This document shows, in pieces, positions 17,564 through 63,561 of a stretch of DNA of 64,000 nucleotides. A program made the position numbers and the translations under genes. The notes under the pieces are model-generated. The model was not told the DNA's origin. It ran no database searches and saw only the letters and a program-made list of their open reading frames with translations. This DNA comes from Lophium mytilinum (lineage: Eukaryota): positions 186,001 to 250,000 of the forward strand of contig MU004197.1 in the NCBI GenBank assembly GCA_010093605.1, in the 5' to 3' direction. Within the stretch, counting starts at the first letter, position 1. Every line of letters begins with the position of its first letter.

Positions 17564-18991
17564 ATGCCGCCGCTGGATATGGATATGGATGGCCTGTCGC
17601 TGTTGTTCAGCCAACTTGGTCTTCGTTCGAAGCCATCTTTTCCTCGTCCAGTCGTTCCCAAGGATCTAAACGACCTTCCCGCCGAACTTCTTCATCTTGT
17701 GTGCAACTATCTCGACATCGTGGACTTGAAGTCCTTCCGATTGGCACATAAAAGATTCCGCGACATCGGCGTCAGCCACCTCTTCTGCGAGGCACGTCTC
17801 TGTTCTGACCTTGAGAGCTTGAAGCGCCTCGAACACGTCGCCAGTCATCCCATTGCGAAGCATGTCAAGTCGCTTGACTGTGTCGCAAAGGTGCCAAAGG
17901 GTTACTTTGGAATGGAATTGGTCATGAGCACAGACTTCGAATACACTCGAGGCTTAATTCTTGCAGAAAATGCAGGCGGGGAAGCAGCGTATCAGGAATT
18001 CATACAGGCGTGGACGAAAGCTTGGGGACACTATCCAGGGGCTCTAGGCCAATCACCTTGCCTTTCGGTTCTCTTGAAGGGTTTAGTCTCCCTTGAGTCG
18101 ATCAAATTCTCCGCTGGCACTCCGATAGTGCCAAACACACCCACACACCGTACTTGCACCTATCTTCACCACGGTCGATTCTTTGTTGGTGTATTGAGAG
18201 CGTGCCAGCTAGCCGGTGTGGCATTGGAGAAGCTAGTTTTCTCAGACGTAAATGAGAGAATCCTGCATCTTGTCAACTATCGGGAACACTCACGTGAGCT
18301 TAACAAATTCCCGTGTCTCTGGAGGGTTCCGAACGGGTATGAGCTTCGGAACATCCTGACATCTCTCACGACCCTCAAGCTTCGTATAGGCAATATCTGG
18401 ACTCGCAGATGGCCACACGCGCCACATGTACGCGACAACTTTGCCACAGTCCTCAGCAATATGTCAAATCTCCAGGTTCTGGACATTGCCTTTCTCGACA
18501 TACCGGCCTTGCTCAGCAGTGTCCTTAGGGAGTCTCTCTGGCCGACTTTGGAGTCGTTGTCGCTTGGTTACGTCGGTATCCATGAACCGCACTTCATGTC
18601 GTTCCTCGAGAAGCACACATCCTCTCTGAAGGTTCTCGAGCTGAACAACATAATCCTTGTTGGCAGTTGCGGACAGAATATACTTCGACCGCTCCGGGAC
18701 TGGGTGATGCGCAGCAAACTGGAGTTTATCTCTGTTAAGGGTCCCCTACGTGAGATCCATCCTATCGAGCGTGCGCACGAAGATGAGGACGCCCTCAATT
18801 TACGATGCAAAGAAGCCGATTGGAAGCCGGACCGCAATGAGATCAACCTGCACGTATTGAAGTACCTTACATATGGACAAGGCTTGACGCACGATGCCGA
18901 AGTAACTCAAGCGGCTCTCACAGGAATCCATGAGGCTATCTACGAGGCACCTGCCTCCTGTGGAACGGTTACGCTTGCGAAGTCCGGATAA
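17564..18991 (+). CDS. F-box-like / LRR(RNI)-like protein, family A copy 1
   Basis: 475-aa ORF; LNDLPAELLHLVCNYLD..LKSFRL..HLF.E F-box-like motif; C-terminal LESLSL / LKVLEL leucine-rich repeats. Confidence 0.85.
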   Translation: MPPLDMDMDGLSLLFSQLGLRSKPSFPRPVVPKDLNDLPAELLHLVCNYLDIVDLKSFRLAHKRFRDIGVSHLFCEARLCSDLESLKRLEHVASHPIAKHVKSLDCVAKVPKGYFGMELVMSTDFEYTRGLILAENAGGEAAYQEFIQAWTKAWGHYPGALGQSPCLSVLLKGLVSLESIKFSAGTPIVPNTPTHRTCTYLHHGRFFVGVLRACQLAGVALEKLVFSDVNERILHLVNYREHSRELNKFPCLWRVPNGYELRNILTSLTTLKLRIGNIWTRRWPHAPHVRDNFATVLSNMSNLQVLDIAFLDIPALLSSVLRESLWPTLESLSLGYVGIHEPHFMSFLEKHTSSLKVLELNNIILVGSCGQNILRPLRDWVMRSKLEFISVKGPLREIHPIERAHEDEDALNLRCKEADWKPDRNEINLHVLKYLTYGQGLTHDAEVTQAALTGIHEAIYEAPASCGTVTLAKSG

Positions 18992-19840
18992 CGGGATTGG
19001 TTATTCGTGGAGCTACTATGGTGGTACTTAGTTCGGGTGTTGTTGTTTACCATCACCGAAATGGGAGGGCCGCAGGACACACGCGGCATTGCCCTGAGTG
19101 AATACTGAAGTTTCACATTGTCCTTTGGAGACGAATATTGGCCTCCACCAGAAATACACTACTATGACAGAAGTGTGGGCACCAGGAGATATCACTGATT
19201 TGGCTCCAGTCTCGCCCTATCAGCACTACTGCAGAAGAGACCACAGAATGGCGGGTATACTTTCAGTCAAACGGCAGCTTAATCTCCACTTCATCAGCCT
19301 ATACATCATTTCAGCCACAGAAAAGCCAAGGTACCCTAAGAGACCGTACGGAGTGCCCAAACTTATGTCTCGGTGCTGCATCCTTCTGCCATGCATTTTC
19401 GATACCCTTCATGGGTTAGTACTGAAACGGTATTTCATAGGTGTTCATATCCAGAAATACCGCACACATGGTTCGTAGCTGAAAATAGTAGATAGCCCGA
19501 ATTGGTCGAACATGTAATAAGTCTCTTCACAACCTTGAATTTGCATCATGATTTTAGTATTTGGGTGACTACGCTGCCTTACGCATTCCTGCGAAGGAAA
19601 AGGGGAAAATGAATGGAGTGAATTGAAACATCGCGTCCTATGTCCTCCCTTATATACTGATGTCTCACAGCTCGTGGAGTGGAGTACCGATATGGCGTTA
19701 GTCGTAATGCGAAGAACCCTATGATACGCTGAGAACTCAAGATAATTATAGGTAGGGTAACTATGGCGTGTAGTCGTCAGATTCCTCCTTCAGCAGAAAT
19801 TCAAATCCTCTTGTCCTAGCAGGGAGGAGCGATGTAGAGG

Positions 19841-19937: not shown

Positions 19938-20085
19938 TTGAATGAATACAGCACGTACAGCATCGACTCTCTTTACCAGCGAGTATATCAATACAGCGCG
20001 CGTCATATTCGAGCCCATCCTTAACAAACATCGCGCCTTTAGGATCTTGGAACGGGCCATCAGACCACATACACCAACTATCAGC

Positions 20086-21713
20086 ATGATCGGGATAGGC
20101 GAGGCTATTGACGAGCAACGGCAGGGTCAAGTTTCAGTCGCCAAAGACGACGTTCCACCACCTGCCGGCACGTCTTTCGGGCAACCTAGCCTCGAAGTCC
20201 GGGGGCCTATTGGTATAAACCTCCCCGCCGAGGTGGTTCACCTAGTCTGTAATTACTTAGACGTCAAAACGTTGAAGTCTCTGCGCCTCGCTAGCAGGAA
20301 GTTCGACGACATTGGCATTTGCCACCTGTTTTCGGAGATATCCGTGGGTGCCACCAGGGCTAGTCTTCGCCGTCTCAGCCAGGTGGCTGGATATCCATGC
20401 TTTGCGAAGCGAGTGAAAACGCTCGAATGTTATGGAACTGCCGTAATGGAGAACAATCGCACTGCTTATACCGTGTGGCAATCTCATCTGCGAACAGTCA
20501 TCTACCAAGCCTTGATGTTGATCGCAAATGGGGCCGATTTACTGGAATATTCGAGGTCCGCAACCACCCCAGAAACCCGTCGGACGGCTCGAAAGAAAGC
20601 GATGGCATACCCGGAATTCAAATGGTTTAGGAAAGAAATGGCGGGAACACCAGAGGTACGTACGATATGAGGCGCTGTATCTTAAGTCATGTATACGAGA
20701 GCACTTTCAGACCGGTCGTCCTCCTCCTCTTTGTAGAAAAGCACTAACATGTCTTGGCATTGCCGTAGGACTTTGCAGCAAAAACCATGAGCATGGTCAC
20801 ATGGCTGAAAGCCATGCCAAACCTCAAAGCGATCAAGTATTCGGCTGCCCCTTCTGCTGGCCGAGGCCACGATCTGGACTGTGGCGCTACTGGACTCTTC
20901 ACACTTTTGACGGCTTGCCACACTGCTGGGGTGAAACTCGATACCCTAGACATTCGATTGATTGGTATCGAGTTTGTATATTACTGGCTCACCCGTCGGA
21001 TTCAAGGAACATGTGGTGTCGGCCGCGAGCTTGATTTCGCGAGCGAGACCATCGCGCTCATGCAAGGATCCTTGTTTAGCTTGAAAAGCCTCACGCTCCA
21101 CATGCTATTCGATGAAGGCATCAGGACATTTAGAGCTGCTCGGGTCATGTACCAAGGCCTCCTTCGGCGTACTTTACACGGTATGACAAACCTCAAAGTC
21201 CTCGATATTGCCTTCGATCCTTTGCCGAATGCTAGAGAGAAGGTCATGATTCTCCGGCTGGCCGAGATTCTACGGCCGGGACATTTGAAGCACTTAGAAT
21301 CGTTGTCCATAGCTGGTATGTACGTCGGAGCTCCGAGGTTCCTGAAATTGCTCGAGGGCTGGATATCTACACTGAAGGTCCTCCACATCAGGCGGATTGT
21401 ACTGAAGCACCGCTGGAAAAAACATCTTCCGTTACTCAAGGAATGGGTTTCCCGAAGTCAACTCCAGTCCTTCAACTTCCGGGGCCCATTGCTTGAATAC
21501 GACGCCATCACTTATAGAGTCTTCCAGATTGGGCCTTTCGGGGGGAGAGAGTGCCCTTCCGATATTGAGGATGATCTGATGAACTGGAGGGTGGTAAATT
21601 ACCTGATGCACGGAGGACCATTTCCATGGGGCTGGCAAGATTGTAAATCCACCGCCTGCTTGCAAATGGGCCATGAAGACGTGACGCCCCGGGCACCAGA
21701 ACAACAGGCTTGA
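20086..21713 (+). CDS. F-box-like / LRR-like protein, family A copy 2 (2 exons; intron 20656-20768; alternative in-frame ATG at 19942)
   Basis: LPAEVVHLVCNYLDVKTLKSLRL motif. A phase-0 GTACGT...CTAAC...TAG intron joins ORFs 19942-20670 and 20787-21713 in frame. Confidence 0.85.
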
Positions 21714-23116: not shown

Positions 23117-24721
23117 ATGCCACCAACCGACCCCCCACCCGAGGGCACAGACCATGGCGCCATGTCTCCTAAGCTAGAAAAGCGTCCGATTCTCACGCCG
23201 AAGACCAGACGCCGCCCCGAAGACCCGGTGGATACCCTAGTCGAGCTACTGGGCAAATTCAAGCTCCATCGAAGCCCTACAGCTGTCCCGCCGCAGGCCG
23301 AAAATACTCCTCTCGAGCTTAGTCCCAATGTCAACGTGTTTACTGCCGGTGGCGTAGTCAGGCAGCCCGTCGTGAACGGACCTACGACATCCCTCAACGG
23401 CCTGCCTCCGGAGCTGATACATCAAGTCTGCAATTATTTGGACGTCCCAGGGCTGAAAAATTTCCGGCTCACGGACTCGAGGTCCAACGAGATCGCCGTA
23501 TGCCATCTATTCTCCGAGGGGTCTTTCAGTGCCAGCGAGATTAGTCTTAGACGGCTGAAGGCACTGAGCTCACACACCCAGTACGCCAAGTACGTCAAGA
23601 AACTGGAATTCGTCGGCACTTCTGATCGTGGCTCTTTCGACTGGGCTAGCATGTTCCGCTTGGGAAGAAACGAGACGCCGGAGACCCTGACCGCCGAAGA
23701 TAGCTACCCTCTCGATGTCCGTGCAGACGAGCTGGGTACTCTCTCTGATCAATTGAGGTTAGCCATGGGGCCGAGATTCCTTCTTACCCTCCAGAAGATG
23801 CCTACTTTGCGTTCCATCAAACATTGCAATGGTCCTCTGACACTACCTTGGCACAGAAAATCGAACGATTCCATCATATCTCTGTTGTTCTCGTGCGCGT
23901 TCAGTCAAATCAAACTCGAGCATCTAGAGATTGAGATGAATAAGAGTGACGACATAAGAGGCTGGGGATGTCTCACCGATTTCAGGCTTCGGGGTAGTGA
24001 AGGGGTAATGAGGGTCTTTAGATCATTAAAACTGATGGCATTGGCTCATTTGACTCAATTCACTTACAAGTCCTTACGGGATGGCTGGAAGGGATTCGGT
24101 TTCGACGGCAAGATGTTGGGTAAGCTTCTTATCGAAATGGTGAGCCTGGAGGAGTTGGAGATCACATTCCTACCCAGTGGCCCCGAGGTCACAGAATGGA
24201 GTATGCGTTTTGCACTGCAGAACGTGCTGGGCTCGATTGGACGGTCAAATGTAACTGGTCTCAAGTCATTGACTTTGAGCGGGATGCGTATGGGAGTTGA
24301 ACATATGTTCTCTTTTATAAACAAGAATATCGGCACTCTCCAACACCTGCAGTTGGGAAAGATGGTTCTCGAGGGCGGGCAATGGAGGGAAGCGCTTCCA
24401 AGGCTTCGCGATTGGATTCACACAAGCAATATCGAGACACTCAGCATTAGAGGAAGGCGGCTCGAAGTTAACGACTACGAGCAGATCTGGCCGAAATTTG
24501 ATGGAAACATCGGCGTGGAGGCCGACATGTCGGTACAATCAGACATTGTCGACTACTTGCTAAATGATGGGCACGACCTACGGGGAGAGTTCTTGTCTTT
24601 GACTTTCCAAGTTCTCATGGATGACACGGGGCATTTCTCCACTGATTGGAATACGGAATTAGACCTTGGGATATCGCCATACTTCTCCGTATGGGACTTG
24701 CGTCACCCGAACCCTTGGTAG
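23117..24721 (+). CDS. F-box-like / LRR-like protein, family A copy 3
   Basis: 534-aa ORF; LNGLPPELIHQVCNYLD..LKNFRL..HLFSE; same C-terminal motifs as other A copies. Confidence 0.88.
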   Translation: MPPTDPPPEGTDHGAMSPKLEKRPILTPKTRRRPEDPVDTLVELLGKFKLHRSPTAVPPQAENTPLELSPNVNVFTAGGVVRQPVVNGPTTSLNGLPPELIHQVCNYLDVPGLKNFRLTDSRSNEIAVCHLFSEGSFSASEISLRRLKALSSHTQYAKYVKKLEFVGTSDRGSFDWASMFRLGRNETPETLTAEDSYPLDVRADELGTLSDQLRLAMGPRFLLTLQKMPTLRSIKHCNGPLTLPWHRKSNDSIISLLFSCAFSQIKLEHLEIEMNKSDDIRGWGCLTDFRLRGSEGVMRVFRSLKLMALAHLTQFTYKSLRDGWKGFGFDGKMLGKLLIEMVSLEELEITFLPSGPEVTEWSMRFALQNVLGSIGRSNVTGLKSLTLSGMRMGVEHMFSFINKNIGTLQHLQLGKMVLEGGQWREALPRLRDWIHTSNIETLSIRGRRLEVNDYEQIWPKFDGNIGVEADMSVQSDIVDYLLNDGHDLRGEFLSLTFQVLMDDTGHFSTDWNTELDLGISPYFSVWDLRHPNPW

Positions 24722-25931: not shown

Positions 25932-27473
25932 ATGTTTGCCCACGGGGGTGCCTCCGAGGAGAATACGGCTTCCGCTGCCCTCAACCCTTTATCAGCGCCA
26001 GCGCCTGTTCGCCGAAAGCGTGACCGCCAGGACTCCGACGATCTGGTATATAGTTCCAAACGGCCACGACGAAGTACTGAGCTCGAAGTACAGACTACAA
26101 ATGTCATGGTCGACGCGAGATCATTCCCTGAAGTCGAACTAGCCAGCTTCGAAGGCCTCCCCACAGAGCTACTACATATAGTCTTCAACTACGTCGATAT
26201 CAAGGGACTCAAATCTCTTCGCCGTATCAACAGCCGCATGAACGAGATTGCCATCAGCCATCTGTTCTCCGAAGTCTTTCTCCACGCCGTAGATCGTCCG
26301 CAGAACAGCTTAGACTTTCTTCACAAGCGGCCTGACATGGGCAGTTTGGTTCGAGGCCTGCACTACGGCAACTTTATCGTCCATTTGCCAGACGAGCACA
26401 TCCCCCTTTGGAGGTATCTGGGCGACGTCTACATATTTACCGTGTATCAAGCCCTGAAGAAGGCCGCCACCGGCGCACCATCGGCTATTACCCAAGATGC
26501 TCAAGAGCTGGCAAATACGTTAAAAGGCTGTACCGCGAACTGGGATATTCGCCGTCTCAATTCGACCACGACGGTCCAGCACATCGACAAGATGCCTAGG
26601 CTCAACTCGTTGAGGTTTACTGGATGCCCACCTGATCCCCGAGAATGCGATCAGTCCGCTCGCACCGTATGGCTCAGAGACAATCAATACTCATCCACGA
26701 TCTGCTTATTCTCCACTCTCCTAGCCTGCTACACGACGGGACGAGAACTGAAGAACCTAGAAATCAACTGGGATGGACTGGCTATGCTCCATGCTTGGGA
26801 TGAAATCTACAATCGTGGCTCAAATGGGAAATTTGGTCTATGGGGATCCATACAGCTAACGCTTCTTGAGTCTACTCTCAAGAATCTGACAAAATTCAGC
26901 TGGCAGATGCGGATCGGGGAGCTCGAGGAGCGTACAGATCCACTTGGCAACCCGGGCTTTTTCCACCGCTTTCTGCGCGGACTGCCAAAGCTCAAGGAGC
27001 TGGATATCAGCTTCCGCTGCAAGCCCATCCACCCGGGGATGCCAGGCGATCGGCCCAGGCAAATTTTGCTGGGAGAGATCTTCGGGTCTGTTAAGGCCGG
27101 CACGTCTGTGACTTTGGCTAACCTCGAGTCGCTGTCCTTGGCAGGGATGCACGCGGAGATTGAAGACCTATTCACGATTCTAGAGAACCATCGACCTACC
27201 CTCAAGGCCTTACAGCTGGAAGGAATAGTCATGCGGAACCGTGGGGATTGGGCGCTCGTGCTCTCGCGACTCCGCAGATGGGTGGAGCGAGCACAGCTTC
27301 ACTCTCTCAGCATTCGAGGTGCTCTGGGGGAAGGTGCCCCAGCCTGGGGCCCGGAAAAAAACTGCCGCTATACGCCTGGGGCTGATTTATGGGCGGAGAA
27401 TGAGAAGGTGGTGCAATACCTTCTGAGGGGCGGAGCATGCCCGCTGGTCGCCGAGGTAAACGATGCGGATTAA
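25932..27473 (+). CDS. F-box-like / LRR-like protein, family A copy 4
   Basis: First ATG at 25932; FEGLPTELLHIVFNYVD..LKSLRR..HLFSE; basic RRKR...KRPRR N-terminal patch. Confidence 0.86.
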   Translation: MFAHGGASEENTASAALNPLSAPAPVRRKRDRQDSDDLVYSSKRPRRSTELEVQTTNVMVDARSFPEVELASFEGLPTELLHIVFNYVDIKGLKSLRRINSRMNEIAISHLFSEVFLHAVDRPQNSLDFLHKRPDMGSLVRGLHYGNFIVHLPDEHIPLWRYLGDVYIFTVYQALKKAATGAPSAITQDAQELANTLKGCTANWDIRRLNSTTTVQHIDKMPRLNSLRFTGCPPDPRECDQSARTVWLRDNQYSSTICLFSTLLACYTTGRELKNLEINWDGLAMLHAWDEIYNRGSNGKFGLWGSIQLTLLESTLKNLTKFSWQMRIGELEERTDPLGNPGFFHRFLRGLPKLKELDISFRCKPIHPGMPGDRPRQILLGEIFGSVKAGTSVTLANLESLSLAGMHAEIEDLFTILENHRPTLKALQLEGIVMRNRGDWALVLSRLRRWVERAQLHSLSIRGALGEGAPAWGPEKNCRYTPGADLWAENEKVVQYLLRGGACPLVAEVNDAD

Positions 27474-29979: not shown

Positions 29980-31160
29980 AGTTGGTTGTTGAGGAACGGA
30001 AGATTGAGTTGAGTGTAAAGAGGAAGAAGCTGGAGGAAGGAAGACTTTATATAGAAGGCCTGGATAGTCTCACTTCTCACTTCGTCTAGCGACCTCACTT
30101 GTTAGCTAGGAGTTTCAACAAGATGTAGGGATATCGTCTGCACACTTTCAAGTGCCCTCACCCGTGGTGTTTCGAAGCCGTCGCTAAGATTCAGAGTAGA
30201 AAATTCTCCTAAATATTAGAGATTCTCTTACCTCTTCAAGCCATTTGAGATGGTGCGCCTTGCGAAACATCAAAATAGTCTCCACAGACGTTTGAAAATC
30301 ATGCAACGACTGTGTCTGACGTTCGAAGAGCGACTCCGCTGTCCCCAGATCCGTCATAGCTCGTAGTACCTCGACGTTCTTTGAGAGTCTGGACGGGATA
30401 TAGGATTGATAATTTCATAATAGTCAGATCCCTCAGATCCCCTCCAAACCGCGCAGTCTGGGATCAAATAAACACATGTTTCCAGCTTCAAGGGCAGTAT
30501 TCCATCTCATAATTGTCAAAGTCTTCCATAACATAGTCACGTGACAATTTTATCGCTTAGTTATCACCCGTAGCAGCATTGCAATATCTTGAATAGCATC
30601 TTTGACTACAGATTGTTAGCGCAACTTTATCTCCACGCCAGTGATCTTTACATCGTCCCCAAAATCTCAAAAGCGCATTGAGCCATCTCACATAATGACG
30701 AAGGCCGTTACGGAACCCTTTGATAAGTGCGTGCAAAGCAAGCGGACATGTTCACGATCAATTTTGTGGCTTTAAAACAGAGTTGAGGAGATCTTATGAA
30801 TGTTTAAATAGAGAGTTCTCCGAAATACTCCTAAAGTATGACAGTTCGGAAGTCAAATGTCGAATGCCTCATATGTCTCCGCCTCGTAACCGTGATAAAG
30901 TAGCAGTGCACCTGAATCATCGTTCCAGATGCCATGATCTCTCATGCCTACCCAATCTACCCCGTGTGATCACCAGTAGTAACATCAGCTGTCTGAATAT
31001 GTTCAGAGAGCCTCTTGAGGTGGAACGGGCTTCCATGTAGAATCGTGATTTGGTTTTGTTTGGGAACAAGAAGATCTTGGGATGTAGAGATGTCTCTAGA
31101 GAGCGGTAGTGTTAGATCCGGAGTTCCGAGCAGACGAACGTTTCAAGGATAGACTTACCA

Positions 31161-54474: not shown

Positions 54475-54800
54475 GTCACCGATTGTTGAATCACATGACC
54501 ATGCTCCATCTCATGGTATGGCAGGCAGACTACCACCATGGACAAGGAAACGCAGACAGGAACATCTTGGCCATGGATGGAGGACATCATGCTGTGGCGC
54601 CCCAATGATCAGCTAAAGAAGTGGCTCTACGATAGTATGGGACACTCGGTACTCTCAGAAACACTCTTTGAGTGAGTTACTCGTTGTTGAACCACATGGT
54701 CATGCTCCCTCTCATTGTACCACAGGGAGACTACCACCAAGAACAAGGAAACGCAGACAGGAACAACTTGGCCATGGCTAGAGGGCTTCATGTTGTGGGG
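54411..54800 (+). repeat. Tandem duplication (~190-200 bp) of the B6 C-terminus and 3'UTR
   Basis: CCCAATGATC.GCTAAAGAAGTGGCTCTACGAT...GGAAACGCAGACAGGAACA present at ~54412 and ~54601. Confidence 0.9.
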
Positions 54801-55204
54801 TACCGATCTAGACATTTGATACCTGGTGGCTTTCTCTGGACCGCTCCACGAAGGAGCATTCGAGAGACATGGGTGGAAGACCACGACTTGCATCCTCCAT
54901 AGTCTGGGGATGCTAGCACAGCGGTAGGCGTGTAATAGAGATTCTCGAAAAGGACCCACTAGCTAGATATTGGTGTCTGAAACTTGACTAACATAGGGAG
55001 AGGAGGGACGCTGAGTGAGTCTGGGAGCAGTACTTAGCGTCAAAAAGATACCTCTCAAAAGCTGCAGCGCACGGTCCCCCGAGTTAGGACCGGCGCGAGG
55101 TGAAGGTGGAAATAATTTATCCGGTTGCGTCTTCAGTCTATAATCCTACTCTTTTCATCCTCCATCATCCGATCATCACCCAGTCCTCAACTTTTCATCT
55201 CGCC

Positions 55205-56042
55205 ATGGCAGAAAGGCCAGAAGTCCAAAAGGTACGGAATGTCAAGGATCACAGATGCTTCATATCATGCTCTGCTAACGGTTTCATAGGCTCGCTACCG
55301 CGAACCCCATGAAGGAGACATCGAGGAGATTCCGAGAGTCGTCCACGAGACCGATATCGCTGTCGCGCAACCACAGCCCAGTCTACGAGACCCTACAATT
55401 TCCCTTTTCCAGAACTTGCCCGCCGAGCTGCGATTAAAAATCTATAATCATGTGCTCGACTTGGACGCCGAAGGATGGGCTTCCAGACCCCGTAAGTCTC
55501 GTGCCCAAGACAGATACTCGCGAGTGTGCCAGCCCAAGGTACCAAATGGTCTAGGCTTCACTCAGAAGCTCTTGTGGATCAACAAGCTGATCAGAGCGGA
55601 AGTATCTGCAGAGATATTTCAGTTCGAGGTGTTTGACTTCAGCGGCTCCGTGTCCTGGGATCTCACAATGGTGCGCGACGTTCTTACACAGATTGGAGAA
55701 GCCGGACGGAACAAGATCAAGGAACTTCGATCAATCAACTGGTGGGGCAGGGACTGGAATGCGGACTCTCCTTCGGACAATTCAAGATCTGAGAAGGATG
55801 CGCAATGCGCTGCCGCGGTCGTGAAGCTTATCGGCTCATGTAAGAACCTGGAGCGTTTGAGTGTTCGCTACTCTTGTTGGAGCAACGGATCGTTAAGAAT
55901 CATGAGGCCTTCGGAGGTTGAAAACCTTTTCGGAGTTGTTCTATTCGACTCCATTACACAGCGGGCTGCAGGACTAGCAACGACTACTACCCACTGGTTT
56001 AGGCGAAGCTCTTCTAGTTCTGTTCATTCGACATCAAATTGA
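55205..56042 (+). CDS. F-box-like protein, family B copy 7 (intron 55232-55289; divergent C-terminus)
   Basis: MAERPEVQK|, DIEEIPR, FQNLPAELRLKIY...QKLLWIN...IGEAGRNKI. Confidence 0.8.
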
Positions 56043-56268: not shown

Positions 56269-57105
56269 TTATACCACATCCGTAACATCATACGAAATCC
56301 GACTAACCCCCTTCGACCGACTAATCTTCTTCACCACAATCCCACCCACATCCCCCGTACTCGGCAAATGCGTCCCCCCACACGGATACGACCCCACGCC
56401 CTCCACCTCGACCACCCTAAACACCCCCTCCTCCGGCACCGCCATCTCCTCCGGCACCGCCGTACACTTACTCCTCGTCGTCTCCTCATCCCACCACAGC
56501 ACGTTCACCGGAAGCCCCTGCTTCACCAACTCATTCGCCTGGTCCTGAATCGCCTTCTTATGCTCCCCAGCAATCGACCCGAAATACTCCACCGACGCAG
56601 CCCCCGGCGCATGATTCGCTTTACTCTCCGACACCTTCCCCAGCTCCGGGATCGACGACTCCGCGAGCTGCCGCACCGCGAGACCGAGCAAGTGGCCCGC
56701 GGTGTGGAGCCGGGAATGGAAGTTCCGCTTCTCGTCGTCGATGGCTTGCATGATAGTCTGGCCCTCCGCAAACACGCCGCCGCTGATCTCCGCGGGCGAG
56801 GTGAAGGTTCCTTGGTGCAGGATGCGGTCTTTGGGGAGCTTGCGGACCGATTTGACGTCGAATTGGATTTCGGATGATCCTGGGGAGGCGGATTTGATGG
56901 AGCCGGTGTCGCTGGGTTGTCCGCCGCCCTGTGGGTGGAAGATGGTCTCGCGCGTGGCGATGATGTAGTCGGTGTCGGCGGCGGTTTTGAAGAAGCTGCG
57001 GTCGTCGTCCGGGAGGGTGGTGATGGGGTGGCAGGATAGGACGGCGGTTGCGAGGTTGCGCAGGGCGCCGTCTTTTTGGTAGACTGCTAGGGTTCGAGAT
57101 GCCAT
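56269..57105 (-). CDS. Free-standing AlaX-type aminoacyl-tRNA editing protein (ThrRS/AlaRS editing/SAD domain)
   Basis: TIFHPQGGGQPSDTG, HxxxH (HTAGH) and CxxxH (CGGTH) zinc-binding motifs; 278 aa, intronless. Confidence 0.92.
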   Translation of the reverse strand: MASRTLAVYQKDGALRNLATAVLSCHPITTLPDDDRSFFKTAADTDYIIATRETIFHPQGGGQPSDTGSIKSASPGSSEIQFDVKSVRKLPKDRILHQGTFTSPAEISGGVFAEGQTIMQAIDDEKRNFHSRLHTAGHLLGLAVRQLAESSIPELGKVSESKANHAPGAASVEYFGSIAGEHKKAIQDQANELVKQGLPVNVLWWDEETTRSKCTAVPEEMAVPEEGVFRVVEVEGVGSYPCGGTHLPSTGDVGGIVVKKISRSKGVSRISYDVTDVV

Positions 57106-57458
57106 TGTTTGCGGGTTTGAGGGAGAGTGATGATGGAGATTGAGATGGGCTCGGGAGTCTGCAATGCCGCTAGGAATCTAAGAAACAGGTCTGAAGATGC
57201 TCTCTGACTAGCTCAATGAAACGAGAGAAGAGCACAAATGAGACGAGTATATATTCAAATTGGAGAATGACTGTGGTTGTTCAGATGTTTCGAGAAGGAT
57301 GCATGTCAAGCGTAGGGCGTCACATGCCAAGAGGTGTCGGGAAAAATAAGTGTTCCCGGTGGACCAATCGAAAATTGGTATCCGCTAAAATACCTGATTG
57401 GTCCGATGTTTTTCATTTCTGAATTCCTAATTCAACACCGCCATCTCTGCTTCACCTC

Positions 57459-58422
57459 TTACGTCGGTGAAGAGCCCATCTTTGAAGGATTTAGTGCTAG
57501 AGTCTCTGTCGCTGGAGCATCGACCGTCGCATCCTCCTCCTCCGGAGGATCCCACCTAAAACATTTCGCCTGCATCTCCGGCTTCGGTCCCCATTTCCAG
57601 TCTCCCACATACCTCATCCCCACCTTGCGATACAGCGCCTCTCCCGCCTTCGCAGCAGTCAGCGACACAGGAATCTTCTCCTCCCTCGCATGATCAAATC
57701 CCCACTTCAGAAGCAGCTGCCCGATGCCCCTCCGCTGAAAACTCTTATCAACTATGATATCGCAAACGCCCCAAAAGTCCTCCGGGTCCTTGTCTTTGGG
57801 ATCGAAATATCTTTCATCTCCATTGCCGTACGTCCAGTACCGGATGAGGCTCTCGGAGGGATTCATAATGACCTCCATGGATTGGGCTATCCAGGTGTTG
57901 CGCAGCCATAATGAGAATCCTGCATAGATAGATCAGCAGAGTGTTGATTGTGATCTATAATTAGATTCAAGATGTCGGGCGAAGCCTTCTTTACACAGCA
58001 AGTCTTTTAGGAAACACACGCGATCGTAGTCACGTGACCCTGGAGCGTCCAATTGGTTCCCTTCAACACGAAGCGAATCGAAAACATGTAAGAATATACA
58101 CACTTTGCCAAACAGTCTGCTTATTCCACCATTTCTTCTTCACCTCTTTACTCTCGCCATTTCGGCACCATATGCAGAACCCTGCGATCTTGGGTGCGCC
58201 GGTCCATCTATCGTCGGAGGGCTCGGTTACTGCGACTATGATGCGTATAGCGGGCCATTCCATCATCTTTATGTTTCGCTTTTCGTAGGCTTTCAGGTAG
58301 GCAGCTGGGTGCTTCTTGCGGCCCGGGTAGAGGTACTCGTCCATTTCGTCTTCGTCATTAGAGTTGATCGTGATTTCGGCGATGCGAGGGATGTCGCTTG
58401 CGGTGGCTGCTCGGACTTTCAT
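57459..58422 (-). CDS. GNAT family N-acetyltransferase (2 exons; intron ~57921-58103)
   Basis: MKVRAATASDIPRIAEI N-terminus, IAGFCIW, acetyl-CoA motif FQRRGIGQLL, GEALYRKVG. Confidence 0.88.
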
Positions 58423-59362
58423 GTTGGGATAAAGGGAGAGAAGTTGGAGCGGTCAGGTGTTGTATTTCAGCAGTTTTGAAGCACGCGGAGGCGTTGTAGG
58501 AATTTCGTTTCACGTTCAAGCTTGAGGAGTGGAACTATGATACCTTAAACCGTAAAATCAAAGTTGAAATATTCGAGGCTTTTAGAAGTTGATCGTCAAG
58601 CTGCAACATACGGGGTTAGTACATTTTACTGCTGACATGACGCGGCGCATCACGGTAAGGCTAGACCATTACCTCATGAAAACAAAATGAGTCAACTTTT
58701 GTACGGCGGTGCATGTTACCGGATGAGCACCCACGCATGTCGAAACACAGAGTACATAGTACTGCGCCTCGTAAGGCTGACTGCATTTCATACGATAATC
58801 TGGATGGTGAGATTGGACTGTTCGGGTATTGCGTTGACTCACATTTTTAGCGCATCGGTACTTCGTATTTGCGCCCTTAGGATCGACAATCCTAGTACAA
58901 CATCAGGTTAGATCAGCCCTTTGCTTCGATATTCGACACTTGTCATTCATGTAGGTGTGACTCCAGGAATACTACTATCCAAGATGTAGGGGAGGTGTAC
59001 GAAGTGTGCAGATGTGAAGCGGGGAACTCCGGACGAATAGGTTTGACCCTTGCTATGATTGGCCAGATAGTCTATCCCCTGGAATCAAACACCTACCTTT
59101 GTAAAAGAATGACATAGACCGTCGCGATCACGAAATGAGGACGAAACTATGATGAAGAAGGTTTGACTACCGAAATATCTAGTACGGCTTGCCTGATTTC
59201 TCATTCGCTATCGGCATTGGCAAATCGCAGCAAACAACAAGGAGATAGGCAGACCCCATTGCCCTCATCCGTAATGATCATCACACCATACTCGCCAACC
59301 TTGAGCGCCCGACAGAAATCCAAGCGCTTGATAGCAAAGGCGCATCATCGGAGACGGTATCC

Positions 59363-60853
59363 CTACGGTGACGAACTTCTTCCCCGTTTGCGCTTGCTCT
59401 TTTCTTCGGGATTTCGCAGCGGAAAGTCTCCTCCATGCATTAGATACTCCGTCACTGGAACATTCAAGCTATTGTCGTCGTCAACCGGGTTCTGACTACC
59501 CAATCTGTCCAGTTGGTAGAGATTTCTCCGTCCATAGAACTTGTCAATAGTAGAGTAAGGATATGAATCAGGGTTCACCAGAGCCTCTTCATGGGTGAAC
59601 CCCTCCAGCAGCTTCCCTTTGAAAGAAAGCCGACTGATAGCACTGGATGATAACAATTGATGGAGTTGAGGAAGAGTCCAACGCCAGGTACTACCCGTGA
59701 GCATAACATGCTCAAGCTCGAGGACTTTGAGGTCCTGGTGACCGTCAAGAAAACGTAGCATGAAGTCGGCGTCCATTCCCATCCACGTAAGGGAGAGGCG
59801 TTCCAGCTTTAACCATACGAATCGCTCCTCTTCGTTGCGCGGATGAATGAAACGCTCGAACTGAGTTGGCATGTTTCGGTACTCCGCTGCCGGGCGACAG
59901 CGTTTGAAGGAAAGCCTCAAGTCTCTGAGATTAGGCATTTTGATGAGAGCCTTTTGGATTGCACCTACTGGAGCAATGAACCTCCTATTGAAGTCTGCTA
60001 GCGTCATGATGATTTTGAAGTCAATGGTGGTCAACGTTGAGGTATTCAAGGGTGTCGGATTAATACTCCCATACCAGCATCGAATTGGCCTCTCCCATCG
60101 GTCGAAGAAGGATCCGGACTGGCTCTCAAAAACGGAAGTCGTCATAGAAGCCTCAAGCGTCTTGAACTCGACACTAGAGCAACGGCAGGCGATTTGTATG
60201 CCCTTGAAGAAATCCTGCGCACGCCACCCCATTGACCTGCAGGTGATCTCTGTCACTACCTCCGAGAACTTGACAGACTCGAGACCTGGCAATCCTTCTA
60301 TCAAGTCTATAAGGCAGGGACGATAAACTCCCTCGATCCACAGGCCTCGGGGGTCCTCGCAGGGTCTTTGGTGCTTTACATGTTCTATAGTGGCGTCTAT
60401 TACCTTGAAGAGGTCCGCTGCTTCCAGATGAATACTCGGATCCGAAACGAATTCTAGAGACTTGACATGCTGAGCAAACTGCGAGCCCTTGGTAACCAAC
60501 GTGAGCAGTCGGTCGAAACTAGCCATGTTGTCCTTCAGACACGCTTCCGAGAAGAGATGGGTGATAGCGATCGTGTTGTAAGCCGAAGATGCGCGCCGGA
60601 ATGCCTTGAGCGTGGGTACGTCGAGATAGTTGCATATCATGTGTAAGAGCTCCGGTAGGATGACAGGAATGTTCACAGGTCTGTACGCCGGCTTTGACTT
60701 TGACTTCGCCTCGTCACTGTCGCTGTCGCTGTCAATCCATCCACATTGTTCGTCCCGCTTCATGCTAGCGTCTTGAGCGCATTGCGCGAACTCCCAGTCC
60801 CCTTCGAGTCGCTGTTCTGTCAAACACGCTCGTAACAATGAGAGATCCTCCAT
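59363..60853 (-). CDS. F-box-like / LRR-like protein, family A copy 5
   Basis: First ATG at 60853 (ORF open further upstream); ILPELLHMICNYLDVPTLKAFRR..HLFSE; VTEYLMHGGDFP; basic C-terminal KSKRKRGR. Confidence 0.85.
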   Translation of the reverse strand: MEDLSLLRACLTEQRLEGDWEFAQCAQDASMKRDEQCGWIDSDSDSDEAKSKSKPAYRPVNIPVILPELLHMICNYLDVPTLKAFRRASSAYNTIAITHLFSEACLKDNMASFDRLLTLVTKGSQFAQHVKSLEFVSDPSIHLEAADLFKVIDATIEHVKHQRPCEDPRGLWIEGVYRPCLIDLIEGLPGLESVKFSEVVTEITCRSMGWRAQDFFKGIQIACRCSSVEFKTLEASMTTSVFESQSGSFFDRWERPIRCWYGSINPTPLNTSTLTTIDFKIIMTLADFNRRFIAPVGAIQKALIKMPNLRDLRLSFKRCRPAAEYRNMPTQFERFIHPRNEEERFVWLKLERLSLTWMGMDADFMLRFLDGHQDLKVLELEHVMLTGSTWRWTLPQLHQLLSSSAISRLSFKGKLLEGFTHEEALVNPDSYPYSTIDKFYGRRNLYQLDRLGSQNPVDDDNSLNVPVTEYLMHGGDFPLRNPEEKSKRKRGRSSSP

Positions 60854-61935
60854 CTTAGACGTTGAAGAGCTGTGTTGTAGAGTTGGTAGGAGCCGCTCGC
60901 AGACGATCTGCTTGTTGGTGCTGCTTCGGGGTTTGCAGATGGGGCCCGCACAGGGTCTGCCCGTTGGCGCTGATAGTGGGGTGTACCGAGCTTCAGGGTT
61001 TGGTATGTAGTGGGTGGTAGAGTGGTCGGCAAAGTGGCTTGTTCGCTGATTGAAGAGCGCCTGGTAGGCACGCGGGCCGGCTCGTAAGTGAGAGGAACAG
61101 CGATCCAGATCTTTCACCACAAGGATGACCGACAAGAGATTTGCAGTGAGTAGACGAGAATTCGGGTGTGGCTGCGAGGTATTCTGTCATGATTAGCAGG
61201 CAACTCAAACCAATGTACAGGCTGCGTTCCATCTCCACCCAATTTTAGAATCCAGACGAGTAATATCACGTGACCCTAATGCACGTGACATCTGAACCCT
61301 CATAGAAAGCCCGGGACTTTCCCGAACGCTTTTACGGGATTCAAAGAAGGAGGGTTTGGAATGAAAATGGAGATCCAGATCATGAAATATGTCACGAGCG
61401 TCACTAACAAAGTCATCGTATGCTTTTACTTCACCTGCCTTCCTTTTATTGATAGGTGACACTTCTATGTAATTGTTACTTCGTTGGTGGTTTCGAGGCA
61501 TATTAGTGGTTATATCTAAGGCATAGTCCTATGTCGCTTCGCTTGCTGGATCAATAGATAGCTCTTAGGCGTAGTTGAAACATTTCCTCATGAGCAAAGT
61601 TAATTATTAACCTCAACGTCAAATTTCCATCCTGTAATGCTATTGAGTTCACCAAATAATGAGATGTCCGGGTACCCTTCACGACTTGAAAAGCGCAGAC
61701 CTGGCTTGCTCTAGTCACAACTCCACCCTCATGAGGAAACGTCTCGTCGAAAAACATATATTCATCCACTCCTTTCTTTGTGTGTAGTGAAGGCCTCAGG
61801 AATCGATCGTTAATCCATCCAAGTCCCTTCCGACATTGCTCATTCGCGTGCGCCGAATGCCACACTCCTCTGAGAATCTGGATTCTCCGACCCATGGGAT
61901 GCTGACCCTGCTATAAATTGCATTGATAAGCGCAA

Positions 61936-63561
61936 CTAACCTTCATAAACCGAAAGATATGAGCCTTCTGCGCCAGAGCCACCATCGAGCTCTTCATAGT
62001 CGTCGCGCAACGGACATTCATAAGCCGAGAGATATGAGCCTTCTGCGCCAGAGCCGCCGTCTAGCTCTTCATAGTCGTCGAAATCTGGCTCGTCATAGTC
62101 GTCGATGAAACGAGAGCCGTTGAGGCTCAAGCCCTCGAGTCTTGGCAGTTCAAGTTCCGTCCTCAATGCTGATGACTTTTCGCGGAACGGGAATTCGCCT
62201 CCTTTCATCAGGTAGTCTATCACCGGAAGATTCAAGCCGGTCTTATGTTCCACTGGTTGAGCTTCGCCATATTGCCCTAGCTGAACAAATGGAAACCGCC
62301 AATCATACATATCGCCATGGATTTGACCCTCGTCCAGATCGACGGTATAAGCGATCAGCGTTCCACGGACGGTAACTCGCTGCAATTGGCTGGATGCGAT
62401 CCATTCGCGGAATTCCGGAAGCGCAGTGAGCCAAGAGCCCCCGTCGAGAGCCACTCTCTCGAGATCAAGGAATTTGAGGCTCGAGTCATGGTCCTTGAGG
62501 AATCCAAGAAGAGCATCAAATTTGATCGCAATCCAAGCGAGTGAGAGATGTTGTAATCTTGGCCAATTGATCGTCATTCCATCGTTACTTAGTTGCAGAT
62601 CTTCCAGGACCTGACCAAAGTCGCACATGAAACTGGCTTCATATGACGAAGTCGTCTGTTCTGATTTCCGAGCAAGCGTCAAGGATTGAAGATTGGGCAA
62701 TACTCTGAGAGTGTTGATCGTGCTGTTTTGGTCATCCCGATTCTCGGAGAGATCGAAGCGGATACTGGTGAAATTGTTGAGGGCCCACTGCCACATGAAG
62801 CGGCCCATATTCTCATTGCCAAACAACCAGCAGAATCCCCAAACGGAAAACCGGCGATAGGCGACGTCCGTCCACAGGGCCTCTACTTGCTTGAGCTTGA
62901 CGCCAGCAGCGAAACAAGCCATGTACACTGCGTTGAAGAAAGTTGAACCTTCCCCATAGCGATTAGGAGTCTCCGAAAACTTGATGGACTCGAGAGCCGC
63001 CATTCGCTTCATCAGGGAGACAAGATTTTCGAGTTGATCCACCTCCGGTGGGTAATTTTCCCGATCAGTTGCCGCCAAGTATTCATAATGTTGGTAGTAC
63101 GGGGAGGACGGATCGCCCTCAGCTCGTTCCAGCAGCATCTCTCGCTCCACTTGCCGTTCCGCACCCCGAATGAATGACGAATCCAATTCCTGCCGCATCT
63201 CCCGCTCATAGTATCGGTTCATGGAATGAATGAAACCCACAGGCGAGTGCAGCGCGGATTCCCAGTCGATATCATGGGCTGCTCCGGACGGACAAAGGTC
63301 ATGTTCGGCTACGCAATCGAGAGACTTGATGTATTTCGCACAGTGTGGACCTTTGGTGAGCAACGTATGCAACCGCGTATAGCTGGATATGGTAGGTCTC
63401 AGGTATGCTTCCGAGAAGAGGTGTGGAATCGCAATCTCGTTGTACGTTTTTGATGCAAGCCGGAACGACTTTAGCGTAGGGACATCAAGATAGTTGCAGA
63501 CAGTGTGAAGCAACTCTGGTGGTAGGCTTGGAATAGGCCCATTCTGCTGGATATCGTCCAT
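61936..63561 (-). CDS. F-box-like / LRR-like protein, family A copy 6
   Basis: 541-aa ORF; LPPELLHTVCNYLDVPTLKSFRL..HLFSE; VIDYLMKGGEFP. Confidence 0.88.
   Translation of the reverse strand: MDDIQQNGPIPSLPPELLHTVCNYLDVPTLKSFRLASKTYNEIAIPHLFSEAYLRPTISSYTRLHTLLTKGPHCAKYIKSLDCVAEHDLCPSGAAHDIDWESALHSPVGFIHSMNRYYEREMRQELDSSFIRGAERQVEREMLLERAEGDPSSPYYQHYEYLAATDRENYPPEVDQLENLVSLMKRMAALESIKFSETPNRYGEGSTFFNAVYMACFAAGVKLKQVEALWTDVAYRRFSVWGFCWLFGNENMGRFMWQWALNNFTSIRFDLSENRDDQNSTINTLRVLPNLQSLTLARKSEQTTSSYEASFMCDFGQVLEDLQLSNDGMTINWPRLQHLSLAWIAIKFDALLGFLKDHDSSLKFLDLERVALDGGSWLTALPEFREWIASSQLQRVTVRGTLIAYTVDLDEGQIHGDMYDWRFPFVQLGQYGEAQPVEHKTGLNLPVIDYLMKGGEFPFREKSSALRTELELPRLEGLSLNGSRFIDDYDEPDFDDYEELDGGSGAEGSYLSAYECPLRDDYEELDGGSGAEGSYLSVYEG
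61941..62080 (-). repeat. 75-bp coding tandem duplication in the A6 acidic tail
   Basis: DDYEELDGGSGAEGSYLS occurs twice, 25 codons apart. Confidence 0.9.

What the first reader, a model, noticed from the sequence alone, without database searches (positions are those of the whole stretch)
17564..63561. Polyketide cluster at the axis of a mirror-symmetric array of 13 F-box-like genes
Seen: the order and orientation are A+ A+ A+ A+ B- B- B- [hydrolase- MFS- PKS+] B+ B+ B+ B+ (AlaX- GNAT-) A- A-. Each arm is a tail-to-tail B/A module, the arms are inverted relative to each other, and transcription of B and cluster genes diverges from the MFS/PKS intergenic region. Established: F-box proteins are SCF substrate adaptors, and fast-diverging F-box arrays act in non-self recognition elsewhere (e.g. 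SLF genes around S-RNase in plants). Inference: this is either an old inverted segmental duplication with a cluster inserted at its centre, or a functional unit coupling a small-molecule weapon to a diversified ubiquitin-ligase adaptor repertoire (defence, self-protection or allorecognition). I know of no described fungal locus with this layout, but cannot search for one.
Basis: partly seen in the sequence, partly recalled or inferred. Interest (0 to 1): 0.8.

Follow-up and report, generated by a model that had tools for sequence, protein, structure and literature searches.

The report
F-box arrays around a polyketide cluster
A wood-dwelling fungus carries thirteen very diverged F-box-type genes in two mirrored arms around a small polyketide gene cluster; the inner arms are old and kept gene for gene in a sister genus, but nothing yet shows that they work together with the polyketide genes.

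Summary
The layout is real. Protein names returned by the searches place the window in Lophium mytilinum (Dothideomycetes). It holds six family-A genes (F-box plus LRR-like, about 500 aa) and seven family-B units (2EXR/DUF7730, F-box-like plus a short LRR-like domain). One B unit is a truncated remnant.

Paralogs share only 23-47% identity, and the arms share no DNA similarity apart from a dispersed 170-bp element. All seven B units have one-to-one counterparts in the same order in Mytilinidion resinicola. There they flank four genes I could not identify, so the B arms predate the split of the two genera. The trees do not pair genes across the arms, which argues against a whole-arm inverted duplication.

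The close B family is small and concentrated at this locus. No M. resinicola PKS appeared among full-length PKS relatives; the best non-self hit was 52% identical.

I found no shared promoter motif, no A or B genes beside four distant PKS loci, and no test of co-expression. My reading: an old, conserved, lineage-specific array of adaptor genes with a polyketide mini-cluster lodged in it. Functional coupling is unproven.

The parts
17564..18991 (+). A1, F-box + LRR-like protein, 475 aa, single exon
   Evidence: Pfam F-box 23.8 bits against a 20.5 cut-off. The ORF is letter for letter a protein on record, P0278. The Atlas look-alikes are Ascomycota F-box clusters.
19942..21713 (+). A2, 552 aa, one intron at 20656-20768
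   Evidence: Two ORFs match the A profile. The intron has canonical GTACGT..CTAAC..TAG signals and restores a single frame. The F-box hit is below the cut-off.
23117..24721 (+). A3, 534 aa
   Evidence: Family membership rests on the alignment and the A profile. The ORF is an exact protein on record, P0279. No Pfam hit at E<=0.01.
25932..27473 (+). A4, about 513 aa counted from the first ATG
   Evidence: Searches place it in family A. The first ATG was located. The F-box hits are below the cut-off.
28827..30357 (-). B1, 390 aa, 5 exons (annotated model P0004, KAF2490203)
   Evidence: Exons were mapped. It is the ortholog of M. resinicola KAF2802564 (support 100/100).
31161..32320 (-). B2, 330 aa (P0005, KAF2490204)
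   Evidence: define the gene. It is the ortholog of M. resinicola KAF2802563 (99/98, 68% identity). Structure model m66a0b8698d95 has mean pLDDT 77.6.
32680..32925 (-). B3, truncated remnant: only the N-terminal F-box-like part, 82 aa, followed by a stop
   Evidence: B profile E 1.9e-10. It is 52% identical over 82 aa to M. resinicola KAF2802562, E 1e-21. No C-terminal part was found.
33789..34767 (-). FSH1-family serine hydrolase (LovG-like by recall), with introns
   Evidence: Pfam FSH1 E 9.2e-13. The N-terminal exon starting MRILCLHG was located.
36025..38188 (-). MFS efflux transporter (MFS_1, TRI12-like); the ends are approximate
   Evidence: Pfam MFS_1 and TRI12 hits on its exons.
39902..48398 (+). 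Highly reducing PKS, 2667 aa, 10 exons (P0007, KAF2490207), domains KS-AT-DH-CMeT-ER-KR-ACP
   Evidence: Domains and exon map. The nearest non-self relatives are 52% identical.
49365..50296 (+). B4, 294 aa, 2 exons (P0001, KAF2490208)
   Evidence: define the gene. It is the ortholog of M. resinicola KAF2802557 (100/99). Contigs of run X3 lie at 49345-49595 and 50085-50319.
50962..52248 (+). B5, 371 aa, 4 exons (P0003, KAF2490209)
   Evidence: Exons mapped. It is the ortholog of M. resinicola KAF2802556 (100/98).
53097..54819 (+). B6, 491 aa, 5 exons (P0128, KAF2490210), with a tandemly duplicated C-terminal tail
   Evidence: define the gene. It is the ortholog of the first unit of M. resinicola KAF2802555 (100/99). 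The tail duplication is 54406-54597 / 54595-54798.
55205..56042 (+). B7, about 259 aa, intron at 55232-55289
   Evidence: A spliced joint in an X3 contig, plus contigs at 55288-55867. The start codon was read. It is the ortholog of the third unit of KAF2802555 (100/99).
56269..57105 (-). AlaX-like tRNA-editing-domain protein. It interrupts the right arm and I do not count it as part of the arrays.
   Evidence: Pfam tRNA_SAD E 7e-10. An X3 contig covers 55889-57315 at depth 447.
57402..58796 (-). GNAT acetyltransferase, 3 exons. I do not count it as part of the arrays.
   Evidence: Pfam Acetyltransf_1. An X3 contig carries joints at 57918/58103 and 58600/58673.
59363..60853 (-). A5, about 496 aa counted from the first ATG
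   Evidence: It is sister to A6 (81/84).
61936..63561 (-). A6, a 541-aa ORF; the annotated model differs from this ORF
   Evidence: F-box-like hit at 22.0 bits, below the cut-off. The exact ORF is not on record.
50724..50912 (+). About 170-bp non-coding element (TATA-like, CT-rich, (TCA)n). Other copies lie at 52562-52789+, 19807-19937+ and 25048-25229-.
   Evidence: Its core is multi-copy in DNA run X1 and lies inside other contigs of X3. It is the only DNA similarity between the arms.

Best explanation
This is an old, lineage-specific locus of Mytilinidiaceae. Two unrelated families of F-box-type proteins were built up by serial tandem duplication long before Lophium and Mytilinidion diverged, and they have been kept since as distinct genes.

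Each protein most likely acts as a substrate receptor of an SCF ubiquitin ligase. On this reading, an N-terminal F-box-like helical motif docks on Skp1 and a C-terminal LRR-like solenoid selects a target. The solenoid is long in family A and has about four or five repeats in family B. This step is inferred from profiles and predicted fold, not shown.

A minimal polyketide cluster sits between B3 and B4. The HR-PKS builds a reduced, C-methylated chain, the FSH1/LovG-type hydrolase releases it, and the MFS pump exports it. This step is inferred from the domains present.

The mirror layout is a historical by-product. One inversion, or an inverted duplication of a single A/B progenitor pair, followed by tandem growth within each arm would produce it. 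It is not a copied whole arm, and it is not evidence of a joint function with the PKS.
For: - Divergence. Paralogs share 23-33% identity in family A and 31-47% to B4 in family B. The arms share no DNA similarity except one dispersed 170-bp element.
- No RIP in the arrays. Their RIP indices are normal (TpA/ApT 0.66-0.72), whereas the neighbouring AT-rich block scores 1.80. Diverged old copies would escape RIP.
- Collinearity. All 7 Lophium B units have a counterpart in M. resinicola. Six pairs have 99-100% bootstrap support, and B3 matches by BLASTP at E 1e-21. Identities are 49-68%.
- Same order in both genomes. In M. resinicola the GenBank accessions run 564, 563, 562, [561-558], 557, 556, 555. 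In Lophium the accessions follow the window order exactly: 203, 204, [205, 206], 207, 208, 209, 210.
- No mirrored pairs. B4+B5 are sisters (98/97) and the right-arm copies group together. A5+A6 are sisters (81/84).
- A small, concentrated B family. The search covered 1.84 billion representative proteins. Only 12 reach E<=1e-30, 35 reach 1e-10 and 438 reach 1e-3. Of the 12 strongest hits, 9 lie at the two syntenic loci, 1 lies about 41 accession numbers further along the M. resinicola contig, 1 is a Lophium copy on another contig and 1 is unnamed.
- PKS relatives. No M. resinicola protein is among the best 120 of 1294 full-length PKS relatives, and the best non-self hit is 52% identical, from other orders and classes.
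- Fold of B2. Model pLDDT is 77.6. Matches include TIR1 (Z 7.3), D3 (5.4), FBXL5 (5.1), FBXL3 (5.0) and a Skp1-bound F-box (Z 4.6, rmsd 1.9 over 48 residues).
- Pfam on relatives. DUF7730 matches 46 of 59 and 2EXR matches 42 of 59 B relatives.
Against: - A non-B centre flanked by the same B genes is conserved in both genera. That would also be expected if the arrays and the centre formed a unit.
- I could not see what the four central M. resinicola genes are. A PKS split into two models shorter than 2483 aa would fit both the count of four and the miss.
- The literature offers some precedent. F-box-like domains are reported as enriched at some fungal type III PKS clusters (PMC6985275, passages read). 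An F-box/LRR gene inside a Zymoseptoria PKS cluster was associated with a metabolite level (bioRxiv 10.1101/2022.05.20.492824, passages read).
- Skp1 binding is untested. The fold matches have Z below 8, which the tool warns may reflect only a common arrangement.
- Window B copies score below Pfam's 2EXR cut-off (best 23.9 against 24.8).
- The A family's distribution in the rest of the genome and in M. resinicola was not examined.
Confidence: 0.6

Rival explanations
1. The locus is a functional unit. The A and B adaptors belong to the polyketide system, for example by controlling turnover of the cluster's enzymes or regulator, or by protecting the producer's own targets. The layout would be kept by selection for co-inheritance or co-regulation.
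For: - B arms around a non-B centre are collinear in two genera.
- All 11 units from B1 to B7 diverge from the single MFS/PKS intergenic region.
- Published reports describe F-box-like genes at fungal PKS clusters (PMC6985275 and 10.1101/2022.05.20.492824, passages read).
- The window holds no pathway-specific transcription factor, so another kind of control is conceivable.
Against: - No M. resinicola protein is among the best 120 full-length PKS relatives, while every B gene has a 49-68% identical ortholog there.
- No k-mer is shared by the 15 upstream regions beyond chance. The best p is 0.004 over 5518 words tested.
- Four metagenomic HR-PKS loci with 10-kb flanks contain no A or B ORF. Those PKSs are only 29-35% identical, so this is a weak control.
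- More distant B relatives in Apiospora saccharicola and Arachnomyces sp. lie on contigs of a different length from those species' PKS relatives.
Confidence: 0.15
2. A whole multi-gene arm (A...B) was copied once in inverted orientation, and the polyketide trio was later inserted at the axis.
For: - The two arms show mirror order and orientation.
- A1, the outermost left gene, groups with A5 and A6 from the right arm (95/94).
- The PKS has only 52% identical relatives with a patchy taxonomic spread. That is compatible with late arrival.
Against: - Whole-arm copying predicts sister pairs across the arms. None is seen among the B genes: B4+B5 are sisters (98/97), the right-arm copies group together, and B2 and B3 fall outside.
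- A5+A6 are each other's sisters (81/84).
- No repeat, AT-rich scar or DNA similarity marks the borders of the trio.
- A non-B centre already existed before the two genera split.
Confidence: 0.15
3. The arrays are a non-self or allorecognition locus, comparable to S-locus F-box arrays in plants (comparison recalled, not tested), with rapidly diversifying adaptors.
For: - Many linked, highly diverged F-box-type paralogs sit in one locus.
- Ortholog identity of 49-68% between sister genera looks low, but I have no baseline from other genes.
Against: - Strict one-to-one orthology and collinearity between genera indicate stable genes rather than birth-and-death turnover. The only differences are one extra copy in M. 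resinicola and one decayed copy in Lophium.
- No population data exist. Only one strain's DNA runs hold the stretch.
Confidence: 0.03

Closest known systems
SCF substrate receptors of the F-box/LRR type (FBXL2/3/5, TIR1, D3/MAX2)
   Same: Both have an N-terminal F-box-like helical motif followed by an alpha/beta LRR-type solenoid. Family A gets Pfam F-box hits and its best PDB sequence hit is FBXL2, though not significant at E 1.1. The B2 model aligns to TIR1, D3, FBXL5, FBXL3 and a Skp1-bound F-box at Z 4.6-7.3.
   Different: The B solenoid is much shorter. B proteins also carry an extra N-terminal beta domain and a conserved 'EEIPR' motif. The B profile finds no solved structure by sequence (0 hits at E<=10). 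Skp1 binding is untested.
Pfam 2EXR (PF20150) and DUF7730 (PF24864), fungal families of unknown function
   Same: B relatives match them: DUF7730 in 46 of 59 and 2EXR in 42 of 59. Window copies hit 2EXR just below the cut-off.
   Different: The close B subfamily is confined to Lophium, Mytilinidion and one unnamed record at E<=1e-30. I found no experimental literature on 2EXR: none of the 15 papers containing the word looked relevant from their listed titles and abstract openings.
F-box genes reported at fungal polyketide clusters (Navarro-Munoz & Collemare 2020, PMC6985275; Zymoseptoria tritici PKS cluster 18, bioRxiv 10.1101/2022.05.20.492824)
   Same: In both cases an F-box or F-box/LRR gene lies next to a PKS in a Dothideomycete or other ascomycete, and its role in the pathway is unknown (passages read).
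   Different: Those cases involve single genes. Here there are 13 units of two families in two mirrored arms, with the inner arms collinear between genera.
LovF/LovG-type pairing of an HR-PKS with an FSH1-family thiohydrolase (recalled from the lovastatin and brefeldin literature, not from a call)
   Same: The PKS has the KS-AT-DH-CMeT-ER-KR-ACP domain set without a release domain, and an FSH1 hydrolase lies beside it.
   Different: Identity to annotated LovF/MokB-like proteins is only 38-39%. The product is unknown and no tailoring enzymes are present.
S-locus SLF arrays around S-RNase in plants (recalled)
   Same: Both have many linked F-box paralogs around one non-F-box gene.
   Different: There is no polymorphism evidence here. 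The arrays are stable and orthologous between genera, and the central element is a metabolic cluster.

Membership tests
F-box proteins (family A) | F-box motif recognised by the curated profile at its gathering score | tested here: inconclusive
   A1 passes PF00646 (23.8 against 20.5). A2, A4 and A6 hit F-box or F-box-like below the cut-offs. A3 and A5 have no hit at E<=0.01. All six align over the motif LPxELLHxVCNYLD.
F-box proteins (family A) | C-terminal substrate-binding repeat domain (LRR, WD40 or Kelch) | tested here: inconclusive
   The only direct hit is a weak LRR_14 match on A2 (E 0.004). Atlas structural look-alikes include one cluster carrying LRR_15 plus F-box, at TM 0.47. I made no structure model of an A protein.
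F-box proteins (families A and B) | Binding to Skp1 | not testable with these tools
2EXR / DUF7730 (family B) | Match to PF20150 or PF24864 at the gathering score | tested here: inconclusive
   Window copies score 18.6-23.9 bits against a cut-off of 24.8. Of the 59 aligned relatives, 42 match 2EXR and 46 match DUF7730 at E<=0.01, with best E-values of 9e-9 and 1e-11.
F-box/LRR fold (family B) | Three-helix F-box followed by an LRR solenoid in a confident model | tested here: inconclusive
   B2 model pLDDT is 77.6. The best matches are TIR1 (Z 7.3, rmsd 3.2, 107 aligned), D3 (Z 5.4) and a Skp1-bound F-box (Z 4.6, rmsd 1.9, 48 aligned). Foldseek's best hit is the tropomodulin LRR at E 2e-3. All Z values are below 8.
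Highly reducing iterative type I PKS | KS, AT, DH, CMeT, ER, KR and ACP domains in one protein | tested here: met
   All seven domain types are found in P0007 above their cut-offs.
Fungal biosynthetic gene cluster that includes the F-box genes | Co-occurrence of the core gene with the F-box genes in related genomes | tested here: inconclusive
   The B arms are conserved in M. resinicola around 4 unidentified genes. No M. resinicola protein is among the best 120 PKS relatives of 2483-5000 aa, but shorter or split models were not searched.
Fungal biosynthetic gene cluster that includes the F-box genes | Co-regulation with the core gene | not testable with these tools
   Only assembled contigs of one RNA-like run were available, and these cannot rank expression. 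No shared upstream word was found.
Non-self recognition F-box arrays (S-locus type) | Haplotype polymorphism and rapid turnover of the array | tested here: not met
   Turnover is not seen: 7 of 7 B units have positional orthologs in the sister genus. Polymorphism within the species could not be tested, because only one sample holds the stretch.

The most novel reading that the evidence does not exclude
The B proteins, and perhaps the A proteins, are ligand-dependent SCF receptors in the manner of TIR1, COI1 and D3. Each paralog's short LRR pocket would sense the polyketide made by the central cluster, or variants of it, and trigger degradation of a different target. The locus would then encode a fungal small-molecule signal together with its panel of receptors. 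This would explain why the same B genes have stayed around a central block since before the genera split.
Probability: 0.04. Interest if true: 0.9.

Novelty: new variant of a known kind. Interest (0 to 1): 0.45.

Why it matters
Fungal genomes hold hundreds of F-box-type genes with unknown targets, and the 2EXR/DUF7730 families have no known function. In this locus seven such paralogs have been kept as separate genes, in order, across two genera, next to a defined metabolic cluster. That gives a compact system for asking what these adaptors do and whether F-box genes seen at biosynthetic clusters are passengers or parts. If they are only passengers, the locus is a warning that cluster-prediction tools will draw in neighbouring gene families.

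Tried and rejected
- Whole genome. None is held for this window, so I could not make a genome-wide census of A or B genes.
- Earlier notes of this scan. Three look-ups returned nothing.
- Supplement of PMC7530617 (Dothideomycete cluster catalogue). It was unreadable in three tries. It may list whether the Lophium PKS cluster has a counterpart in M. resinicola.
- Paper searches. A search for the inferred accession numbers and the PKS locus tag found 0 papers. A search for '2EXR' listed 15 papers, none of which looked relevant from the listed titles and abstract openings.
- RNA runs. No RNA holder was listed. X3 is labelled RNA only as a guess, but three of its contigs carry joints at intron-like ends that DNA run X1 lacks.
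- RNA coverage. No X3 contig was laid on the PKS, B5 or B6. The tool states this is not evidence of silence.
- Shared promoter words. The best 7-mers occur in 7 of 15 upstream regions, p 0.004 over 5518 words tested, so they are not significant. No 8-mer occurs in 7 or more regions.
- The 170-bp element as a family-specific promoter. I rejected this: there are only 4 copies, one of them inverted, and its core is multi-copy elsewhere in the genome.
- Common origin of A and B. hhalign gives a probability of 2.7%.
- Sequence search of solved structures. The B profile gave 0 hits at E<=10. The A profile gave 3 non-significant hits, the best being FBXL2 at E 1.1.
- Metagenome scan with B. Two alignments were too diverse for the tool. 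A narrower alignment matched 262 stretches, none of them a relative.
- Metagenome scan with the PKS. It returned 10 loci at 29-47% identity, so none is an ortholog. The four loci with long flanks hold no A or B ORF.
- First B4 structure model, built from 8 sequences. Its pLDDT of 60.9 was too low, so I did not use it for searching.
- Atlas search with the 1204-aa ORF at 1-3612 gave no usable hit.
- Complex prediction was not run because no Skp1 sequence was available.

Full report
**Source of the window**

Protein searches returned letter-perfect matches named as Lophium mytilinum proteins, all on one contig of 1,605,038 bp. The window is therefore from a Dothideomycete of the order Mytilinidiales. 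No whole genome is held for it.

**Checking the observation**

I searched the window with translations of the candidate genes and then with profiles built from each family. This finds exactly six family-A loci and seven family-B loci, and nothing else.

- The A genes lie at 17564-27473 on the plus strand (A1-A4) and at 59363-63561 on the minus strand (A5, A6).
- The B units lie at 28827-32925 on the minus strand (B1-B3) and at 49365-56042 on the plus strand (B4-B7).
- A2 looked broken into two ORFs. A 113-nt intron with canonical GTACGT, CTAAC and TAG signals joins them into one 552-aa frame.
- B3 is only an 82-residue N-terminal piece ending in a stop, with no C-terminal part anywhere nearby.
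- Mapping the annotated models shows that B genes have two to five exons. They also share an N-terminal extension with a conserved 'EEIPR' motif.

Between the arms lie three genes:

- an FSH1-family hydrolase;
- an MFS transporter;
- a 2667-aa PKS with KS, AT, DH, CMeT, ER, KR and ACP domains.

An AlaX-like gene and a GNAT gene interrupt the right arm. The qualifications are that one of the thirteen is a remnant and that 'F-box-like' rests on weak scores for most copies.

**What the two families are**

Family A:

- A1 passes Pfam's F-box cut-off. A2, A4 and A6 score just below it, and A3 and A5 have no hit.
- All six align over the same motif.
- Atlas look-alikes of A1 are Ascomycota clusters in which 15-36% of members carry F-box families.

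Family B:

- Window copies touch Pfam 2EXR just below its cut-off.
- Of 59 aligned relatives, 46 match DUF7730 and 42 match 2EXR.
- A model of B2 built on that alignment has mean pLDDT 77.6. It shows an N-terminal beta domain, a helical F-box-like segment and four or five helix-strand repeats.
- Foldseek's best match is the LRR domain of tropomodulin at E 2e-3.
- An exhaustive structural comparison puts TIR1 first (Z 7.3). D3, FBXL5, FBXL3 and a Skp1-bound F-box follow at Z 4.6-5.4, among other RNI-type LRR proteins. These Z values are middling and the tool warns against over-reading them. The theme is consistent, however.

A and B are not detectably related to each other (hhalign probability 2.7%).

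**Age and history**

- Paralogs share 23-33% identity in family A and 31-47% to B4 in family B.
- At the DNA level the arms share nothing except a 170-bp non-coding element present four times. Its core turned out to be multi-copy in the genome.
- The arrays show no RIP signature, while the AT-rich block at 4001-17200 beside them is heavily RIP-like. That fits copies too diverged to be recognised as repeats.

**Comparison with the sister genus**

An exhaustive profile search of 1.84 billion representative proteins found only 12 hits at E<=1e-30, 35 at 1e-10 and 438 at 1e-3. Naming the best hits showed the following:

- The close family is essentially Lophium plus Mytilinidion resinicola. In M. 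resinicola nearly all copies lie on one contig of 483,219 bp.
- Weaker hits are single proteins from scattered Pezizomycotina.

GenBank accessions follow gene order in Lophium. B1 is 203, B2 is 204, two numbers are left for the hydrolase and MFS, the PKS is 207, and B4-B6 are 208-210.

Applying the same logic to M. resinicola, and placing all units in one tree, gives a one-to-one, collinear map:

| Lophium unit | M. resinicola accession (KAF2802...) | Support |
|---|---|---|
| B1 | 564 | 100/100 |
| B2 | 563 | 99/98 |
| B3 remnant | 562 | 52% identity over 82 aa |
| centre | 561-558, four genes I could not see | - |
| B4 | 557 | 100/99 |
| B5 | 556 | 100/98 |
| B6 | first unit of the fused model 555 | 100/99 |
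| B7 | third unit of the fused model 555 | 100/99 |

M. resinicola has one extra unit between the B6 and B7 counterparts. Ortholog identities are 49-68%. The B arms and a non-B centre therefore predate the split of the two genera and have been stable since. A separate clade of off-locus copies also has orthologs in both species.

A whole-arm inverted duplication predicts sister pairs across the arms. The trees instead show the following:

- B4+B5 are sisters, and the right-arm Bs form a nested group, with B1 beside it and B2 and B3 outside.
- A5+A6 are sisters, with A1 next to them.

One inversion, or an inverted copy of a single progenitor, followed by tandem growth fits better.

For the functional-unit reading, the conserved centre is suggestive. 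Against it:

- The search for full-length PKS relatives (2483-5000 aa) listed 120 of 1294 hits. The best non-self hits were only 52% identical, from Acephala, Aulographum, Xylona and Scytalidium, and no M. resinicola protein was among them.
- A split or short M. resinicola model would have been missed, and it would even fit the count of four central genes. This point stays open.
- No upstream word is shared beyond chance.
- Four distant metagenomic HR-PKS loci have no A or B neighbours.

**Transcripts**

Contigs of run X3 match the window without mismatches and carry three joints at intron-like ends that DNA run X1 lacks. They cover the AlaX-like gene, the GNAT gene, B7 (confirming its intron) and parts of B4. 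Assembled contigs cannot rank expression.

**Literature**

F-box-like domains have been reported as frequent, and in some clades enriched, at fungal type III PKS clusters, with no known role (PMC6985275, passages read). An F-box/LRR gene in a Zymoseptoria tritici PKS cluster was a metabolite-GWAS hit whose expression runs opposite to the cluster's (bioRxiv 10.1101/2022.05.20.492824, passages read). One search on F-box genes and fungal polyketide clusters held 1,107 papers, of which the 20 best-ranked were listed. A second search on 2EXR listed all 15 of its hits. No listed title or abstract opening described a multi-gene, two-family array around a PKS. That is limited searching, not proof of absence.

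**Verdict**

The layout is real, old and conserved for its inner arms. The most economical account is a lineage-specific array of SCF-type adaptor genes with a minimal polyketide cluster lodged in it. The mirror symmetry is a relic of one inversion event. Functional coupling is possible but unsupported. The contents of the M. resinicola centre would settle much of this.

Noticed in passing
window 4001-17200: AT-rich block (GC 0.295) with strong RIP-like indices: TpA/ApT 1.80 and (CpA+TpG)/(ApC+GpT) 0.19. It has internal repeats: 4700-4919 ~ 14499-14718 (direct, 91%), 10829-10935 ~ 13542-13648 (inverted, 95%) and 4090-4188 ~ 17224-17322 (inverted, 83%). It is probably a decayed transposon nest directly bordering A1.
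   Followed up: partly
window 50724-50912, 52562-52789, 19807-19937 (+) and 25048-25229 (-): A non-coding element of about 170 bp with a TATA-like box, a CT-rich tract and a (TCA)n run. It lies upstream of B5, B6 and A2, and inverted between A3 and A4. Its core is multi-copy in DNA run X1 and sits inside contigs of other loci in the RNA-like run X3. It may be a dispersed promoter/leader or a small mobile element.
   Followed up: partly
window 54406-54798: B6 carries a tandem duplication of its C-terminal tail (80% identical at the DNA level), which the annotated model reads through. A6 has a 76-bp tandem at 61930-62080 that encodes a repeated acidic tail.
   Followed up: no
window 55889-56042: The contig of the strongly covered AlaX-like transcript (minus strand) runs into the 3' end of B7 (plus strand). 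The two convergent genes therefore overlap at their 3' ends.
   Followed up: no
window 1-3615: A 1204-aa ORF, open at the window's 5' end, on an A-rich coding strand. It has no Pfam hit and no usable Atlas hit.
   Followed up: partly
window 41500-41810: The PKS has a low-complexity SNG-rich insert in its KS-AT linker. The annotated model splices out part of it (41738-41809).
   Followed up: no
B proteins, N-terminal exons (e.g. window 29657-30357, 31981-32320): A conserved 'EEIPR' motif followed by a beta-rich domain of about 65 residues lies ahead of the F-box-like part. Both are also present in the M. resinicola orthologs. The only fold matches are weak ones to small beta-sheet proteins.
   Followed up: partly
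M. resinicola protein P0127 (KAF2802555): This annotated 1224-aa protein contains three complete B units. It is probably three neighbouring genes merged by the gene caller.
   Followed up: partly
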